The notes under the pieces are model-generated. The model was not told the origin of the DNA and did not search any database. It was given only the letters and a program-made list of their open reading frames with translations. The position numbers were made by a program, and so were the translations under genes. Positions 12,737 through 56,094 of a stretch of DNA of 64,000 bases are shown piece after piece; position 1 is the first letter of the stretch, and the number at the start of each line of letters is the position of its first letter. Source of the DNA: a virus (lineage: Duplodnaviria > Caudoviricetes); IMG/VR virus record IMGVR_UViG_3300048691_000224. One strand, written 5' to 3'.

Positions 12737-13086
12737 GATTGTGTTCCTGTTGCTTTAGCAATTGCAATTTCAGCATTGTGAATAGATTCATCCATTGATG
12801 GACTAATGGCGTAAACCCCAAAACCTTCTTTAGCCTGCAGCACTTGACCATATAAATTTTGTAGAGCATCTAGTAGATCCGGTGCCGCTGTTATAAGTCG
12901 GGCATTGGCAGCAAACATCTCTCCGCAGTGCGTACCCTTACGCACTGCGGGAACCGTGCAAATACCTTGGTAACCCCTACCATCCCAATTTACAGGGTCT
13001 TGTTTGATGTGCCAGTTTCCAAACGACATGTTGCAAGCCCAAGGTCCCGGCGTGTGAGTTCCCTGTACTTTAGTTTGGTTACTCAT
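12733..13086 (-). CDS. HTPGPW/ANARLIAAAP-family phage protein (tandem paralog)
   Basis: HTPGPW...ANARLITAAPDLL; both paralogs contain KATGTQ at the C-terminus. Confidence 0.7.
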   Translation of the reverse strand: MSNQTKVQGTHTPGPWACNMSFGNWHIKQDPVNWDGRGYQGICTVPAVRKGTHCGEMFAANARLITAAPDLLDALQNLYGQVLQAKEGFGVYAISPSMDESIHNAEIAIAKATGTQS

Positions 13087-13594
13087 GTAGTTCCTTTGTC
13101 AATTCGACTTTGATTAATTCTTGTACGATTTTTGGATCCGCCTTGATTATCTTCAGTACACTCCCAACTAGTGCACCAATAGCTTTAGTATTACCGGACC
13201 GATATTGATCAGCCGCCCTCTCATTCTTTGCAATGACGTCACGCACTACAACTAAAATATCGGTAGAGCTTGCTTCGTTCATCAATCGTGAAGAACGCAA
13301 ATAGTCGATGATGTTGTACCCACAGTAATTATACCAACAATCATCGATAATTTTTTTCGCGTGAGAATATGATATAGTTTTGTGGTGTAGGCAACAAGCG
13401 ACATCTGCTGTCAGTTGAGTGAATCCATAATGATAGTACTCAATATCACCAATATCGGTGTCTTCCTTTTCCAATTTGGGTAGAATTTCATTTATCATTA
13501 GCTTAGCTAGATATGGGCCCGCCTCATTGGGATGGGCGCTAGTCAAACACGACATCATGATCGCACCCAATTTATCTTTTTCAGTTTCAGTCAT
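13079..13594 (-). CDS. Protein with C-terminal GatB/YqeY-like domain
   Basis: VIAKNERAADQYRSGNTKAIGALVGSVLK...KADPKIVQELI matches the GatB C-terminal pattern. Confidence 0.7.
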   Translation of the reverse strand: MTETEKDKLGAIMMSCLTSAHPNEAGPYLAKLMINEILPKLEKEDTDIGDIEYYHYGFTQLTADVACCLHHKTISYSHAKKIIDDCWYNYCGYNIIDYLRSSRLMNEASSTDILVVVRDVIAKNERAADQYRSGNTKAIGALVGSVLKIIKADPKIVQELIKVELTKELHE

Positions 13595-18719: not shown

Positions 18720-18934
18720 ATAGACCCGAGATCATTTCTGTTTACTTCTACACCACGTCTGATGTACTAATTTTGGTTTTAGTTGCTACTGAGCTATATG
18801 CCAATAATATTTGTGAGGCTGTGCGAGCTCATCTGCACACTTGGGCTTTTTGTCTTCTCGTTCCAGCTGGCTCTTACGACTGTAGCGTCACCTCAAAAAA
18901 TGGTGCTCCCTCACTCAATCAGGAATACACAAAG

Positions 18935-19020
18935 TGCTGGACACAGGATTCGAACCTGCGATGGATAATAAAATCAATAGCTTACAAAACTATTCCCGTC
19001 AACCGCTTGGGTAATCCAGC
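18935..19020 (-). tRNA. tRNA-Thr(TGT) with a class II-like body (long variable arm); CCA not encoded
   Basis: GCTGGAT/GTCCAGC; ATAGT-TTTGTAA-GCTAT; 17-nt variable region. Confidence 0.75.
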
Positions 19021-19066
19021 ACTTTGTATACTCACTATGAGTGGTGGGTGCACGTTGTATATCTTC

Positions 19067-20702: not shown

Positions 20703-20775
20703 TAATTAGATCTAAGTGTGCTCCTGTTACAAACTGCCGGTGAGGCCTGGCGTAGTGCACACTTAGATCTAATTA
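20703..20775. repeat. Perfect 19-bp inverted repeat with a 35-nt loop
   Basis: taattagatctaagtgtgc / gcacacttagatctaatta. Confidence 0.9.
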
Positions 20776-20992: not shown

Positions 20993-21182
20993 GTGTTTGT
21001 TATAATTCTTATTATTCTGAGGGATCAAATTCTTTTTCGATCTCCATAATTTCGATTATCACATACACAGGGAGCTTTACAATCCGCCGGCGTCCAATAA
21101 TTGGCTTCCGTCTGGCAATGTTCACTTCCTGTATTATACGAATTCAAAATCATTTCTTGATCTCTTTATTTGCTATCTGTCT

Positions 21183-21233: not shown

Positions 21234-21352
21234 AAAATATTTTCAAATCAAAGTTTAGAAAGGACTTGAACCTCCCATCCAATAGGATAGCAATTGAACG
21301 CCGCCCCGACTGCTCTACCAATGAGCTATAAAATTTGATTTGAAAATATTTT
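21234..21352 (-). ncRNA. tRNA-mimic element E3 (D-arm and T-arm inside a 19-bp perfect terminal stem)
   Basis: TA-GCTC-ATTGGTA-GAGC; GGAGG-TTCAAGT-CCTTT; AAAATATTTTCAAATCAAA and its complement. Confidence 0.65.
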
Positions 21353-21376: not shown

Positions 21377-21404
21377 ATTATCAACATTTATTTGAACAGG
21401 TCAA
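21377..21404 (-). promoter_or_regulatory. Promoter (TTGACC-N16-GATAAT) for element E3
   Basis: Family-like -35 box, directly upstream of E3. Confidence 0.65.
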
Positions 21405-21423
21405 CAATTATTTTTCAACTTGA

Positions 21424-21600
21424 AAAATAAATTTAGAAAGAGCGGGTAAAGGGAGATCGAACCCTAACAACTTAGTGGATTTCTCGATAGGTAATATTAC
21501 CTCCTATCGCGGCACAGATCCTCAATACTAATTAGGAGTCTACTAATCTATGCCCGCACGAAGTTGGCTGCCTTGCAACCACTCTTTCTGAATTTATTTT
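21424..21600 (-). ncRNA. tRNA-mimic element E2 (extended anticodon arm, 19-bp terminal stem)
   Basis: GCGGGCA/TACCCGC; GATT/AATT D-stem; AGGG-TTCGATCT-CCCT; CGATAGG/CCTATCG. Confidence 0.6.
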
Positions 21601-21616
21601 ATACAAGAATTGCACT

Positions 21617-21766
21617 AAAAACTGAACACAGTACTCGGTTGGATTTGCACCAACTACCACCTGATGGTTACAGGTCGTACTATTCTCATGGGCTTTATAG
21701 CTAATATTTCCCACTACCTTTGTACTAGCTCTACTATTTAAGCTATCGTTACACTGTTCAGATTTT
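21617..21766 (-). ncRNA. tRNA-mimic element E1 (extended anticodon arm, variable arm, terminal stem)
   Basis: GCTT-AAATAGTA-GAGC; ACCTG/CAGGT; GTTGG-TGCAAAT-CCAAC; CTGAACA/TGTTCAG. Confidence 0.6.
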
Positions 21767-21789: not shown

Positions 21790-21817
21790 ATTATCAATGA
21801 AGTTTCAAACAAGTCAA
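21790..21817 (-). promoter_or_regulatory. Promoter (TTGACT-N16-GATAAT) for elements E1+E2
   Basis: Directly upstream of E1. Confidence 0.65.
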
Positions 21818-48555: not shown

Positions 48556-49220
48556 TTGATTTGTCCTAATAGTGTATACCGTTGATATGCAGCACAGTAT
48601 AGTATGTTACATGAAATGATGTCAACATGCTTGTGTGCTTGTTCAACCAAATCAAATATTGAATTGCAACAATTGACGTGCCCTTCACAGTCGAATAGAT
48701 TATTGCTCTGCAGCAATATAGTCTGCCCTCGTTGAAGCATACTCAACCACATCGGAAGATCAGGTATGTGTTCGCAACTTGTGTTTATTACTACACCGTA
48801 ATCACCGTACAACTGGAAGTCGTACATATCAACAGTAACAGCAGTAAAACGATTTGGATCACGGATGTACGCGTCTGCGATCGGTGCTACAGTTGGGTCT
48901 ATATCCAATGAAGTAATGTGTAAGTTTTGTTTCTTACTCAACAACAATTTGCTTAGTGTACCATACCACCCACCAACCACCAGAGCTGTGTCGTGGTCGA
49001 GACCTGTGTTGTATAGCATATCGCAAGCTAATATCTTACTCGCAAGTTGTCCCTCTGATAGTGCGTCTCTGACGGCATCAGCTTGCACTCGCATTGGTTG
49101 GTGGTATAGTTCGCTAACAAGGTCACTGGTTAGGGCAGCAGGAATGTGGTTATCGCTCAATATATCCCAAGAGTAAGAAGTTGTGAGGTGTAGTACTAGA
49201 TCAGTGTGTGATGTATTCAT
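48552..49220 (-). CDS. SAM-dependent methyltransferase
   Basis: VVGGWYG; SLDID; VINTSCEH; LQSN. Confidence 0.75.
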   Translation of the reverse strand: MNTSHTDLVLHLTTSYSWDILSDNHIPAALTSDLVSELYHQPMRVQADAVRDALSEGQLASKILACDMLYNTGLDHDTALVVGGWYGTLSKLLLSKKQNLHITSLDIDPTVAPIADAYIRDPNRFTAVTVDMYDFQLYGDYGVVINTSCEHIPDLPMWLSMLQRGQTILLQSNNLFDCEGHVNCCNSIFDLVEQAHKHVDIISCNILYCAAYQRYTLLGQIK

Positions 49221-53172: not shown

Positions 53173-54030
53173 TTAATTCACAACCAAATTAGTGAGATAT
53201 TTATGCAGATCAGGCAGTCCGCCAATGGAGGTGCCATCAGGGCACACTATTTGCGGGAAGCTTCGAGCGCTTGGAAACTTCTCACTAAAGTCATCACGCG
53301 TGAAGTCAACATCCAACATCTTGGTTATAAATTGTTTATCCTTGTTTGTCAGTAGCGCTTTAGCTTGATCGCACTGTGGACAGCCGGGTTTGGAATATAC
53401 AGTAAATTCTGGAATTCCAACATATCGATCTGCTGAACCAAACATTGGAGCATCATCACCGCTGTATTGGCCCCAGACGTCATCCCAATCACCCTCTGTA
53501 GCACCTTTGGAATACTCAAATACTTTTTGTTCGAAAAAGTTTCCGTGAGTTACGCTATCAATCATCTGCTCTACCCATGGTAGCGGATTCTTTTTAATTT
53601 TGAATATCCCCTTTAATCCAAGGGCGATCAATCGGCGATCTGCAATGTACCTAATATACAACTTCACATCAGCTGCCGTAAGGTCTTTCATTTCACCCAT
53701 CTCAAACGCGAGATCGATAAACTTATCCTCCAAATCAACCATGCGCTCTGCAATTGTATAGAGTTGACTCTTCAGGCTATCTTTCCAGATGTGTCGATTT
53801 TCCTCAATAAACACACGGAACAACTTAATCATAGCGTCTGTATGACAATTACCAGAAATGGATAGTGTGTTAGCATGTCTAATTTGAAACGCTGTACCAG
53901 GGACGCTGAGACAAAACACTTCTGTTGACTGAAGTTCTTTGGTCACTTGTACTGCTGATTTGGGGATCGGTGGTAAGCTACCAGCAATCGCCTGAAGCAT
54001 ATTGATAATATCCGTATTTGTTTTATTCAT
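53173..54030 (-). CDS. nrdB: NrdB C-terminal fragment: 61-aa C-intein (53848-54030), RNR beta C-part and fused glutaredoxin
   Basis: VFCLSVP...SISGN|CHTDAMIKLF; YIADRRL; NFFEQ; YSKPGCPQC. Confidence 0.85.
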   Translation of the reverse strand: MNKTNTDIINMLQAIAGSLPPIPKSAVQVTKELQSTEVFCLSVPGTAFQIRHANTLSISGNCHTDAMIKLFRVFIEENRHIWKDSLKSQLYTIAERMVDLEDKFIDLAFEMGEMKDLTAADVKLYIRYIADRRLIALGLKGIFKIKKNPLPWVEQMIDSVTHGNFFEQKVFEYSKGATEGDWDDVWGQYSGDDAPMFGSADRYVGIPEFTVYSKPGCPQCDQAKALLTNKDKQFITKMLDVDFTRDDFSEKFPSARSFPQIVCPDGTSIGGLPDLHKYLTNLVVN

Positions 54031-54982
54031 TTGTTGTATTCTGAGCACTAGTTAATGTTTTTGCGCGAGCCGCTGCTGCAGCGGCTAGCAGTTTGTCAAT
54101 GTGTTTTATGGTTCTACCTAATTTCCACCCAGTTGGTATCTCAGCTAGCCTACCAATAGTTTTAGATTCAGTGCCGTTGGTTATCCACTGCTTATCGCGC
54201 TTCTTTTGGGTCATCCCAGCCCAGAATCCAATTGGAGGATCTATATTAGGCTGAAGCTTCAGATTGGTTGTGCCATCTGTATAGCAAATTACACCCCTAA
54301 TATTTGGGTGATTTGATACTTGCATCCTTTGGGCAGCAGTACGGATTTGGGGTGGGGGTGGATGTTTACCAAATCTCCACCCAACTGGTAGTTGGGCTGT
54401 TTTTAGCATTTGTGTCGACGTTGTACCATCAGTAATCCACCTAAACTTCCCTACTCGAGTTGCTGAGGCCTTGCGCCTAATCTCTATTGCTTCTTCAGTA
54501 TACACTCGTCCTGTGTTGTTGGGAATACTATGTGGGTGGTCTTGCAACCGCTTGATGTTGCGCCTAGTCACACATTCTAGTTCATCCGCCGAATAGTAAC
54601 TACCACCATTTAATAATCGCCGGGCAGCAGATGTTTTTGCACGCGTAGCGGTAGCTTTTGACCTTGCGGTTTGACGCACATAATCAGGTACACCCGCTAG
54701 TGTGTCTCCACCTTGGCCACCTATTGCTATGTTGTAGGTATCATCCCTTGATACAAAATTAACGTCAACTAGTTGACGTTCTACAGCTCGAGCTTCGTCC
54801 CAAGTGTCACACTCATGCAATGTGATTCTCACAAAGTTATCTCTACCATATTTTTCGACGGCCCTAGCTAACAATATACCCGAACCCAAATACCCATCAA
54901 ATTGATCGGCAAACTGCTTGTGGATCCCCACATATATGCGATCATTGATTACGTTAGTTGTCTGGTACACGATATAATTCAT
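54023..54982 (-). mobile_element. Free-standing GIY-YIG homing endonuclease between the nrdB halves
   Basis: YIVYQTTN...IYVGIH...YLGSG...KYG..NF...E...YN; WITDG/WITNG repeats. Confidence 0.85.
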
Positions 54983-54996
54983 TCAGATTCAAGATG

Positions 54997-55036
54997 TTAC
55001 GTGGTACCATATTTATGTCTTCGTTGTACCACGTAA
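54997..55036 (-). promoter_or_regulatory. 11-bp hairpin with a late-promoter-like CATAAATA in its loop
   Basis: ttacgtggtac / gtaccacgtaa. Confidence 0.6.
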
Positions 55037-55044
55037 TATTCTCT

Positions 55045-56094
55045 TCAGCTCATGTACTCTAGTAGAAATTCCTTCGCCCACGATGAGTCCATTATTGGGA
55101 GCAGTGGCAATACCCACTCCAAAGACAATACACCTTCTTTGGTGAGTCTACACAATTCCTTATGCTTGTCTGTCAATACTTTCAAGGAGCCACTCTTAGT
55201 GCCCGAGCACACGTAACTAAACTCCTCAGTTACAGATTCAATATCCTTCGCCTGAACGTCCTGTATCCGACCATCACCCATCTCTAAAATCATTCTATGA
55301 TTTGGTGATACTGATTGTGAGAAACCTTCACCCTTAAAATGGTACACTGTCGGTACTGTTTTCTTGGTAAGATTGGTTGGAGTCACAAAATTAGTCTGAC
55401 TGGTTTCGGTATCATACTCTAACAGTTCAGTAGATAGTGTGACACATTCGATAGGTAACCACCCATCTAGTGTCATAACTTCTGTGCCGGCAACCAAACA
55501 CTTCTCATCAAGGATCGACCAAGAGATGTTTGAGCCCATTCCAACCATCGTTCCGTGACGGGGGAAGTTCAATAACATGATGAATGATGAAAATAATTGC
55601 ATACCTTCAGTGAATGCTGAGAATACTGCTAGCTGTTGAGCAATGGACTCGGTGTCAGTTCCGATAAAATTCTCAACATATTCGTATTTTTCACGCATCG
55701 CATCATATTCTAAGAACTGATTGTAGATTGTGTCAGGCATTCCTAGCGTTTCCACTAGGTTAGAGTATGCTGCAATATGAGTAGCTTCACGAGCCGCAAA
55801 ACTTAACAACATCATCCGAACTTCTGGTTGGGGAAATACCGGTAGATAATTCATCACATATGCATTTGCTACACTGATGTCACCTTGAGTGAAAAATCTG
55901 AAGATGTGGGTCAAGAAGTTTTGTTCAGACTGTGTTAATTTGGTGTTCCAATCTTTAACATCCTCCAGGAGAGGGGCCTCCCAGTGACCCCAATGCATGC
56001 GTTCGTGATCCATCCACGTTTCGTAGCACCACTGGTAGTTGAATGGCTTGTACGATGGACGTGGGTCTGTTAATTTTAATTTCTTTTTGGACAT
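55045..56094 (-). CDS. nrdB: NrdB N-terminal fragment ending in a 151-aa N-intein (55045-55500)
   Basis: FFTQGD; REATH; FTEGMQLFSSF; WSILDEK|CLVAGTEV. Confidence 0.9.
   Translation of the reverse strand: MSKKKLKLTDPRPSYKPFNYQWCYETWMDHERMHWGHWEAPLLEDVKDWNTKLTQSEQNFLTHIFRFFTQGDISVANAYVMNYLPVFPQPEVRMMLLSFAAREATHIAAYSNLVETLGMPDTIYNQFLEYDAMREKYEYVENFIGTDTESIAQQLAVFSAFTEGMQLFSSFIMLLNFPRHGTMVGMGSNISWSILDEKCLVAGTEVMTLDGWLPIECVTLSTELLEYDTETSQTNFVTPTNLTKKTVPTVYHFKGEGFSQSVSPNHRMILEMGDGRIQDVQAKDIESVTEEFSYVCSGTKSGSLKVLTDKHKELCRLTKEGVLSLEWVLPLLPIMDSSWAKEFLLEYMS

What the first reader, a model, noticed from the sequence alone, without database searches (positions are those of the whole stretch)
21424..21600. 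Element E2: tRNA-like core with a roughly 60-nt anticodon arm inside a 19-bp terminal stem
The outer stem is AAAATAAATTCAGAAAGAG / CTCTTTCTAAATTTATTTT (1 mismatch), followed by a side hairpin GGTTGC-AAG-GCAGCC. The acceptor-like stem GCGGGCA/TACCCGC, D-stem GATT/AATT and T-arm AGGG-TTCGATCT-CCCT are present. In place of the anticodon arm is a long stem (TAGT/ACTA, GGAT/ATCC, CGATAGG/CCTATCG). It is probably co-transcribed with E1 from the promoter at 21790-21817.
Basis: partly seen in the sequence, partly recalled or inferred. Interest (0 to 1): 0.7.

Follow-up and report, generated by a model that had tools for sequence, protein, structure and literature searches.

The report
Stem-clamped tRNA-derived RNA gene in phage
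A 177-base stretch in the tRNA cluster of an uncultured freshwater T4-like phage very probably encodes a small folded RNA that keeps a tRNA's T-arm and acceptor-type helix but has both ends locked in a 19-21 base-pair stem. It cannot decode, it occurs in only one phage species, and its role is untested.

Summary
E2 lies on the minus strand at 21600-21424. The terminal inverted repeat is the third best in the 64-kb window. Only three alleles exist in all collections searched (window, L082 type, L172 type; 95-97% identical). Their 14 variable sites break no pair in the helices common to all folds. The terminal stem has a compensatory A-U to U-A change and a repaired mismatch. The T-arm has A-U to G-C. 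The acceptor-like stem has C-G to U-A.

Its TAGT/ACTA stem loses a pair in one allele. Its D-loop lacks GG, its T-loop has 8 bases, and there is no CCA. The Rfam tRNA model and default ARAGORN both reject it.

A relative at 72% protein identity keeps the neighbouring element E3 but has a different stem-closed RNA and two tRNAs where E1-E2 sit.

The best reading is a young, lineage-specific, tRNA-derived, non-decoding small RNA. It is co-transcribed with E1 and resembles phage T4 RNA C, whose function is also unknown. This scan had already noted sister elements E1 and E3 in this window.

The parts
21424..21600 (-). E2, whole element (177 nt; E2 position i = window 21601 - i)
   Evidence: Fold z = -4.7. 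Three alleles with 14 variable sites, none of which breaks a pair in the helices common to all folds.
21582..21600 (-). 5' arm of the terminal clamp (E2 1-19)
   Evidence: Pairs with 21424-21442. Ranked I3 among inverted repeats of the window. A12-U166 changes to U-A and C11.A167 to C-G in the L082 allele.
21424..21442 (-). 3' arm of the terminal clamp (E2 159-177), followed by a U run
   Evidence: It can alternatively pair with the region upstream of promoter P2 (I9).
21566..21580 (-). Side hairpin GGTTGC-AAG-GCAGCC (E2 21-35), contains a U.G pair
   Evidence: Present in all predicted folds and invariant in the three alleles.
21551..21557 (-). Acceptor-type 5' strand GCGGGCA (E2 44-50)
   Evidence: Pairs with 21442-21448. 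C45-G158 changes to U-A in the L172 allele. It competes with helix 47-56/81-90.
21442..21448 (-). Acceptor-type 3' strand TACCCGC (E2 153-159), followed by TC and no CCA
   Evidence: Together with the T-arm it resembles the 3' ends of phage tRNA-Pro and tRNA-Gly.
21545..21554 (-). 5' strand of the 10-bp helix of the minimum-energy fold (E2 47-56), which pairs with 21511-21520
   Evidence: Pairing probability above 0.99. A82 to G gives a U.G pair. The arm 35-133 has z = -3.0.
21511..21520 (-). 3' strand of that helix (E2 81-90)
21485..21509 (-). Inner hairpin CGATAGG...CCTATCG (E2 92-116). Its loop holds AGGAGGT and the palindrome AATATT.
   Evidence: Present in all folds. A94 to G gives a G.U pair in the L082 allele.
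21450..21465 (-). T-arm-like hairpin AGGG-TTCGATCT-CCCT (E2 136-151)
   Evidence: A136-U151 changes to G-C in the L172 allele. The loop begins with the T-loop motif TTCGA.
21790..21817 (-). Promoter-like site P1 (TTGACT, 16 nt, GATAAT) upstream of E1-E2
   Evidence: It belongs to a repeated promoter family in the region. In L082 it is a near copy of P2.
21617..21766 (-). E1, sister stem-clamped tRNA-like element, 16 nt upstream of E2
   Evidence: It accompanies E2 in every contig long enough to show it.
21377..21404 (-). Promoter-like site P2, 20 nt after E2, which drives E3
21246..21345 (-). E3, third stem-clamped tRNA-like element (context)
   Evidence: Weak tRNA model match of 20.2 bits. 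A homolog in L178 8048-8124 has a different but still paired closing stem.

Best explanation
E2 is a real, lineage-specific small RNA gene on the minus strand that descends from a tRNA gene.

What it keeps from a tRNA:
- a T-arm-like hairpin;
- an acceptor-type helix whose sequence and following bases look like those of phage tRNA-Gly or tRNA-Pro.

What it has lost or gained:
- its D and anticodon regions have been rebuilt into other helices;
- its two ends are clamped by a 19-21 bp duplex, so there is no free acceptor end, no CCA and no anticodon loop.
It therefore cannot decode.

Inferred steps:
1. It is made early, as an E1-E2 transcript from promoter P1.
2. It is cut out at the clamp by a double-strand-specific nuclease of the RNase III type.
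3. It is long-lived because its ends are paired.
4. It acts by presenting a tRNA-like top half (T-loop plus helix) that binds a tRNA-recognising protein of host or phage without being consumed. That would make it a decoy or sponge rather than an adaptor.

Shown: the anatomy, the selection on pairing, the narrow distribution and the failure of tRNA tests. Inferred: transcription, processing and the decoy role.
For: Terminal stem:
- It is far beyond chance.
- It is maintained by a compensatory change and a repaired mismatch.

Other helices:
- The T-arm pair changes from A-U to G-C, and the acceptor pair from C-G to U-A.
- No variable site breaks a pair in the helices common to all folds.

Conservation and strand:
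- E2 diverges 3.4-5.1% between alleles, against 9-11.5% for the adjacent promoter spacer.
- G.U pairs at 1/177, 23/33 and 94/114 fit the minus strand. So do the promoters and all 21 tRNA genes.
- The overlapping 82-aa ORF is not kept in L082.

tRNA ancestry:
- The 3' part aligns with tRNA-Pro of the same array.
- The best acceptor plus T-arm matches among 312 phage tRNAs are tRNA-Gly.

Recurrence of the architecture:
- The same clamp design occurs in E1, E3 and the tRNA-like gene at 18923-19033.
- T4 RNA C has a canonical T-arm next to an end-to-end helix. Its role is unknown (PMC3014915, PMC9697503).

Background from a paper: phage tRNAs are known to counter tRNA-cleaving defences (PMC11455837).
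Against:
- Only three nearly identical alleles exist, so covariation is thin. The shuffle controls are weak (60 of 500 and 15 of 500).
- The element is absent from the nearest relative, which keeps E3. It is absent from 1.49 Mb of other large-phage loci, from IMG/VR apart from one contig, from JGI metagenome contigs and from GTDB genomes.
- Such a young, narrowly distributed element could be dispensable.
- In the unconstrained ensemble the acceptor helix has probability about 1e-4, so a tRNA-like top half may not form at all.
- No partner protein is identified.
Confidence: 0.4

Rival explanations
1. By-product or decaying tRNA gene. E2 is a remnant of a tRNA gene carried in a promoter-bounded cassette that is being shuffled and eroded. 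Only its closing stem matters, as a terminator, insulator or processing site for the E1-E2 transcript. The inner part has no function of its own.
For: - It is confined to one species-level lineage. The 72% relative has other genes in the same slot.
- P1 in L082 is a near copy of P2, so the cassette lies between repeated promoters.
- The clamp ends in a U run.
- The inner core fold is ambiguous.
- The divergence of E2 is not much lower than that of E1 or E3.
Against: - Variable sites inside the core (82, 94, 128, 136/151, 45/158, 156) all keep pairing in the leading folds.
- The 36 bases 46-81 and most of 95-126 are invariant, while the neighbouring spacer changes at 9-11.5%.
- The inner arm 35-133 is more stable than shuffles (z = -3.0).
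Confidence: 0.25
2. Precursor of a chargeable tRNA-like RNA. The clamp is a processing stalk. After RNase III-type cleavage, RNase P would cut before G44, the 3' end would be trimmed to U160 and CCA would be added. The product would be a roughly 120-nt tRNA-like RNA with a glycine-type acceptor end.
For: - The acceptor-type helix has G1-C72, C2-G71 and G3-C70, followed by U. That matches phage tRNA-Gly ends.
- There is a compensatory change at 45/158.
- Positions 36-43, 5' of the helix, are single-stranded in that fold.
Against: - The acceptor helix is strongly disfavoured thermodynamically (5-12 kcal/mol worse even in the best hybrid fold).
- It has a C.A mismatch.
- The L172 allele changes the 2:71 pair.
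- CCA is not encoded, whereas many true tRNAs of this array encode it.
- There is no anticodon loop.
Confidence: 0.12
3. Y RNA-like partner of a Ro60/Rsr protein. The long terminal stem binds a TROVE-domain ring protein and the tRNA-like module recruits an exonuclease.
For: Its general build is a terminal stem plus a tRNA-like module with a T-arm, as in D. radiodurans Yrn1 and the YrlA RNAs. These also occur in phages (PMC4201824).
Against: - No TROVE domain was found in 40 window ORFs tested against Pfam.
- No GNCGAA-type motif is present in the stem.
- No Rfam family matched at E up to 10.
- The order of modules differs from YrlA.
- The rest of the genome could not be searched.
Confidence: 0.04
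4. Intron-bearing tRNA gene. A 35-47 nt insert in the anticodon loop is removed to give a decoding tRNA.
For: ARAGORN, at 80% of its threshold with introns allowed, draws tRNA-Asn(ATT) or tRNA-Ser(CGA) with a 47- or 35-nt intron. An RNA ligase gene lies 1.7 kb away.
Against: - ARAGORN finds nothing at its default threshold, even with introns allowed.
- The drawn anticodon stem loses A72-U127 in the L172 allele.
- The D-arm is poor, there is no CCA, and the acceptor end is locked in the clamp.
Confidence: 0.05

Closest known systems
Phage T4 RNA C (species 1 RNA, rnaC, 139 nt) and RNA D, small stable RNAs of the T4 tRNA gene cluster
   Same: - It is a non-decoding small RNA encoded inside the tRNA cluster of a T4-type phage.
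- RNA C has a T-arm directly followed by a strand that pairs with the 5' end, plus extra arms in place of the D and anticodon arms.
- It has no Rfam family and no known function (PMC3014915, PMC9697503).
   Different: - There is no sequence or covariance-model similarity.
- T4 RNA C has a canonical 5-bp stem and 7-base T-loop and only a short, imperfect end helix.
- E2 has an 8-base loop, a 19-21 bp clamp and a side hairpin.
- E2 sits behind an early-type promoter, whereas T4 RNA C and D are reported as late RNAs (PMC9697503).
Bacterial Y RNAs (YrlA of Salmonella and Mycobacterium, Yrn1 of Deinococcus)
   Same: They have a terminal stem formed by the two ends plus a tRNA-like module with a T-arm. 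They are thought to derive from tRNA and are found in some phages (PMC4201824).
   Different: - They are defined by linkage to and binding of Ro60/Rsr, and by a conserved stem motif. Neither was found here.
- In YrlA the closing stem takes the anticodon-arm position, whereas in E2 it prolongs the acceptor side.
Leader-trailer processing stems cut by RNase III (rRNA operons, phage T7 early transcripts)
   Same: About 20 bp of duplex formed by the sequences that flank a structured RNA in a polycistronic transcript (established knowledge).
   Different: No cleavage data exist for E2. The stem is A-U rich and is followed by a U run, so it might instead terminate transcription.
tRNA-like genes with oversized anticodon loops or 'enigmatic' introns in large phages (Lak megaphages, PMC6784885, as cited in earlier finding e1-5322845)
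   Same: A tRNA-shaped gene in a large uncultured phage with extra sequence where the anticodon arm should be.
   Different: Those keep a normal acceptor end, D-arm and T-arm. E2 has none of these intact and is clamped at its ends. I did not read that paper.

Membership tests
tRNA (Rfam RF00005 / ARAGORN) | Match to the tRNA covariance model | tested here: not met
   No RF00005 match over E2 even at E up to 10. E3 nearby scores 20.2 bits and the true tRNAs score 37-68 bits.
tRNA (Rfam RF00005 / ARAGORN) | Cloverleaf call by ARAGORN at default threshold, with or without an intron | tested here: not met
   Nothing is found at default settings. It is called only at an 80% threshold with a 35-47 nt intron.
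tRNA (Rfam RF00005 / ARAGORN) | 7-base anticodon loop on a 5-bp stem | tested here: not met
   No such loop appears in any of the three candidate folds.
tRNA (Rfam RF00005 / ARAGORN) | Free 3' end with CCA (encoded or added) after a 7-bp acceptor stem | tested here: not met
   The acceptor-type 3' strand runs straight into the clamp. The following bases are TCTTTC, and the stem has a C.A mismatch.
tRNA (Rfam RF00005 / ARAGORN) | T-arm with a 5-bp stem and 7-base T-loop, and a D-loop with G18 G19 | tested here: not met
   The T-arm has a 4-bp stem and the 8-base loop TTCGATCT. The D-loop candidate AGTAGACTCCT has no GG.
Y RNA (YrlA / Yrn1, Ro60 partners) | A gene for a TROVE-domain (Ro60/Rsr) protein nearby | tested here: not met
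   None was found among 40 window ORFs scanned against Pfam. The rest of the genome is not available.
Y RNA (YrlA / Yrn1, Ro60 partners) | Conserved Ro60-binding motif in the terminal stem (GNCGAAN0-1G in YrlA, per PMC4201824) | tested here: not met
   It is absent from the E2 sequence.
Y RNA (YrlA / Yrn1, Ro60 partners) | Binding to Ro60/Rsr | not testable with these tools
   This needs immunoprecipitation.
T4 RNA C / RNA D | Sequence or structure homology to T4 rnaC or rnaD | tested here: not met
   The E2 covariance model with filters off gives no match at rnaC or rnaD (L188 1909-2172). Its only hits are generic hairpins that score alike on both strands.
T4 RNA C / RNA D | A stable, non-decoding small RNA encoded within a T4-type phage tRNA cluster, with a T-arm next to an end-to-end helix | tested here: inconclusive
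   Location and anatomy agree. The stability of the RNA could not be tested.
tmRNA | tRNA-like domain plus a tag reading frame | tested here: not met
   ARAGORN in tmRNA mode, even at an 80% threshold, finds nothing.

The most novel reading that the evidence does not exclude
This phage lineage may run a private class of leader-trailer-clamped tRNA derivatives: E1, E2, E3 and the clamped tRNA-like gene at 18923-19033. In this reading they are excised at the clamp by a double-strand-specific nuclease and then act as tRNA look-alikes. E2 would expose a glycine-type acceptor and T-arm half that either gets CCA and an amino acid, or traps a host tRNA-cleaving defence enzyme. That would be an RNA-based counter-defence not yet described for phages.
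Probability: 0.12. Interest if true: 0.75.

Novelty: new variant of a known kind. Interest (0 to 1): 0.4.

Why it matters
Small non-decoding RNAs in phage tRNA clusters have been known since T4 RNA C and D, and have had no function for fifty years. This phage carries at least four tRNA-derived genes whose ends are clamped by about 20 bp, some with their own early-type promoters.

That gives a compact and experimentally tractable set for two questions: what such RNAs do, and how tRNA genes turn into something else. Turnover is rapid, since E1-E2 are replaced by other RNAs in a relative at 72% protein identity. This points to an arms-race role.

On present evidence, though, E2 itself is a single-lineage element. 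Its expression is unproven and its core fold is ambiguous, so the claim stays modest.

Tried and rejected
**Searches for relatives**
- BLAST of the E1-E3 region and of 8 kb of coding DNA against 50,697 phage records gave no match.
- Anchoring on the neighbouring RNA ligase gave 80 loci of other large phages. None holds E1-E3 by blastn, nhmmer or the covariance model.
- Anchoring on the 136-aa and 131-aa ORFs and on DNA polymerase showed the lineage is isolated. The next polymerase is at 77%, then 41%. Their contigs lack E2.
- Purine/pyrimidine-degenerate DNA patterns from two parts of E2 found only L082 in IMG/VR. They found nothing in JGI metagenome contigs or GTDB genomes. One search went to the metagenome collection although I had meant to test the pattern on the viral one first.
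- Protein look-ups through ORF42, the pentapeptide-repeat gene of L082 and the 205-aa gene gave all the extra contigs. These added only one new allele.
- The homology search with the pentapeptide protein returned only generic pentapeptide proteins and was wasted.

**Ideas tested and dropped**
- A whole tRNA-Gly is embedded in E2 91-162. The alignment to T4 tRNA-Gly looked striking. But the part outside the T-arm and acceptor scores below the best scores of shuffled sequence, so I rejected it.
- L178's 91-nt tRNA-Gly is the orthologue of E2. The alignment is not significant.
- E1, E2 and E3 are paralogues. Pairwise local alignments are no better than shuffles.
- An Rfam family covers E2. There were no matches.

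Full report
**Setting.** The window looks like part of a large T4-type phage genome.
- It holds densely packed small ORFs on the minus strand, a family-B DNA polymerase, ribonucleotide reductase and baseplate genes.
- It holds 21 tRNA genes, all on the minus strand, between 15.2 and 26.7 kb.
- No whole genome is held for the window.
- Nothing in 50,697 deposited phage genomes resembles it at the DNA level.

**Layout on the minus strand**:

| Feature | Window coordinates |
|---|---|
| Promoter-like site P1 | 21817-21790 |
| E1 | 21766-21617 |
| Spacer | 16 nt |
| E2 | 21600-21424 |
| Promoter-like site P2 | 21404-21377 |
| E3 | 21345-21246 |
| Promoter-like site P3 | 21211-21183 |
| 42-codon cysteine-rich ORF | 21153-21025 |

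No promoter-like site lies between E1 and E2.

**The observation.** I number E2 from its 5' end, so position i is window 21601 - i.
- Terminal stem: 1-19 with 159-177, with one C.A mismatch.
- Side hairpin: 21-35.
- Acceptor-type strands: 44-50 and 153-159.
- Proposed D-stem: 53-56 with 68-71.
- Inner hairpin: 92-116.
- T-arm-like hairpin: 136-151.

The terminal inverted repeat is the third best in the whole 64-kb window. The other top ones are E3, a 19-bp perfect hairpin at 20703-20775, and a clamp around the tRNA-like gene at 18934-19020. The whole element folds far better than shuffled sequence (z = -4.7).

- The acceptor-type stem has a C.A mismatch and shares C159 with the clamp.
- The D-stem and the TAGT/ACTA stem both claim U71.
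- The T-loop has 8 bases.
- The D-loop candidate has no GG.
- No CCA follows.

**Relatives.** E2 turned out to be very narrowly distributed.
- An exact-pattern scan of IMG/VR found one contig (L082).
- Protein-anchored look-ups brought in JGI and Logan contigs (L172, L175, L176, L177, L189).
- Together they give only three distinct alleles, 95-97% identical.
- Degenerate pattern scans of IMG/VR, JGI metagenome contigs and GTDB genomes found nothing more.
- A covariance model built from the three alleles found nothing else in 1.49 Mb of loci from other large phages, nor in the T4 tRNA region.
- The nearest more distant relative is L178, at 72% identity in the neighbouring 205-aa protein. It keeps E3 and the cysteine-rich ORF.
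- Where the window has E1-E2, L178 has an unrelated rod-like RNA closed by a 19-bp stem, a tRNA-Ile and a 91-nt tRNA-Gly.
- E1-E2 therefore form a young or rapidly exchanged cassette. In L082 its promoter is a near copy of P2.

**What the three alleles say.** There are 14 variable sites.
- In the clamp, A12-U166 becomes U-A, the C11.A167 mismatch becomes C-G, and A1-U177 becomes G.U.
- In the T-arm, A136-U151 becomes G-C.
- In the inner hairpin, A94-U114 becomes G.U.
- The clamp, side hairpin, inner hairpin and T-arm are thus real and under selection for pairing.
- The G.U pairs, the promoters and the tRNA orientation all put the RNA on the minus strand.
- E2 differs between alleles at 3.4-5.1% of positions, against 9-11.5% for the adjacent promoter spacer.
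- The 82-aa ORF that overlaps E1 and E2 is disrupted by indels in L082.
- With three sequences the statistics are weak (shuffle controls of 60/500 and 15/500).

**The core fold is not settled.** Three folds fit all the substitutions.
- **Fold B, the minimum-energy fold.** It scores -58.5, -64.2 and -60.8 kcal/mol in the three alleles. The clamp extends to 21 bp and closes a four-way junction. The branches are the side hairpin, a long arm (35-40/128-133, 42-46/123-126, 47-56/81-90, inner hairpin) and the T-arm hairpin. The arm alone has z = -3.0, and helix 47-56/81-90 has probability above 0.99.
It scores only -36 to -45 kcal/mol.
- **Fold C, a hybrid.** It keeps the acceptor-type helix and helix 49-56/81-88. 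It is 5-12 kcal/mol worse than B.

Three points speak for an acceptor-type helix. Pair 45/158 changes on both sides in the L172 allele (C-G to U-A). Pair 47/156 changes from G-C to G.U. The block of T-arm, TACCCGC and TC resembles the 3' ends of tRNA-Pro in this array and of phage tRNA-Gly.

The same substitutions are also neutral or favourable in fold B.

The 'tRNA core' 44-159 alone is no more stable than shuffles.

My odds are fold B 50%, a fold with the acceptor helix (A or C) 40%, and other 10%.

**Is it a tRNA?** No.
- The Rfam tRNA model gives no match even at E up to 10.
- ARAGORN finds nothing at default settings, with or without introns. It draws a tRNA only at an 80% threshold with a forced 35-47 nt intron.
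- There is no 7-base anticodon loop, no CCA and no free acceptor end.

An apparent alignment of E2 91-162 to the whole of T4 tRNA-Gly did not survive a shuffle test. The tRNA ancestry therefore rests on the T-arm and the acceptor-type helix only.

**Comparison with known RNAs.**
- **T4 RNA C.** Folded here, it has a canonical T-arm directly followed by a strand that pairs with the 5' end, plus two other arms. Like E2, it sits in the tRNA cluster of a T4-type phage, has no Rfam family and has no known function (PMC3014915, PMC9697503). There is no detectable homology, and the 19-21 bp clamp has no counterpart in T4.
- **Bacterial Y RNAs.** They share the idea of a terminal stem plus a tRNA-like module (PMC4201824). 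But no TROVE protein was found among 40 ORFs tested, the stem motif is absent, and the module order differs.

**Mechanism.** I commit to the following, with the steps marked.
- **Shown:** a structured, tRNA-derived, non-decoding element with clamped ends and selection on its helices.
- **Inferred:** early transcription with E1 from P1; excision at the clamp by an RNase III-type enzyme; stability because no single-stranded end is left; and action as a mimic of the tRNA top half that occupies a tRNA-recognising protein.

The fast turnover of the cassette fits a conflict-related role. So does the known use of phage tRNAs against tRNA-cleaving defences (PMC11455837). The presence of an RNA ligase (23255-23896) and a GatB/YqeY-domain protein (13079-13594) at the edges of the array also fits. 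None of this is direct evidence.

The main rival is that E2 is an eroding cassette remnant in which only the clamp matters.

**Limits.** The rest of the genome was not available.

Noticed in passing
window 18923-19033 (minus): The gene called tRNA-Thr(TGT) at 18934-19020 is also enclosed by a 19-bp leader-trailer stem and lacks CCA (z = -6.1). It is a fourth stem-clamped tRNA-like RNA in this array.
   Followed up: partly
window 20703-20775 (minus): A perfect 19-bp hairpin with a 35-nt GC-rich loop lies just upstream of tRNA-Pro (z = -6.7). A hairpin at the matching place exists in L178 (8567-8641).
   Followed up: partly
L178 7738-7861: In the 72% relative, the slot after the promoter holds an unrelated rod-like RNA closed by a 19-bp perfect stem (z = -6.1). 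It is followed by tRNA-Ile and a 91-nt tRNA-Gly(TCC) with a long variable arm and CCA.
   Followed up: partly
L178 8040-8135 versus window 21246-21345: The E3 core (D-arm to T-arm) is about 90% conserved in L178. The closing stem has a completely different sequence, is shorter and still pairs, so there is covariation for E3's clamp.
   Followed up: partly
window 21025-21153 (minus): A 42-codon ORF with four cysteines and its own strong promoter (P3) is conserved next to E3 in all alleles. A diverged form (NYW[TS]PAD motif) occurs in L178. It has no family.
   Followed up: partly
window 13079-13594 (minus): A stand-alone GatB/YqeY-domain protein (Pfam E = 2.5e-17) lies at the downstream edge of the tRNA array. 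It is a candidate tRNA-binding protein.
   Followed up: no
window 23255-23896 (minus): An RNA ligase (PF09414, with a KxDG motif) lies 1.7 kb upstream of E1. It is widespread in large uncultured phages at about 50% identity (228 IMG/VR matches).
   Followed up: partly
window 53173-56094 (minus): The ribonucleotide reductase small-subunit gene is split into two ORFs by a GIY-YIG endonuclease gene. The C-terminal piece is fused to a glutaredoxin.
   Followed up: no
window 21485-21509 (E2 92-116) and E1 loop about 21700-21712: The E2 inner hairpin loop reads AGGAGGT, which is Shine-Dalgarno-like. The apical loops of E1 and E2 share the palindrome AATATT, which could allow loop-loop pairing. The similarity is not significant (21 of 300 shuffles).
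   Followed up: partly
window 21401-21437: The 3' arm of the E2 clamp can alternatively pair with the A/T-rich region upstream of promoter P2 (18 nt, 83%). The 5' arm of the clamp resembles the conserved promoter-upstream motif AAATAATTG.
   Followed up: no
window 48953-49117: A 24-nt inverted repeat (83% complementary, 117 nt apart) is the only other long inverted repeat of this quality outside the tRNA region.
   Followed up: no
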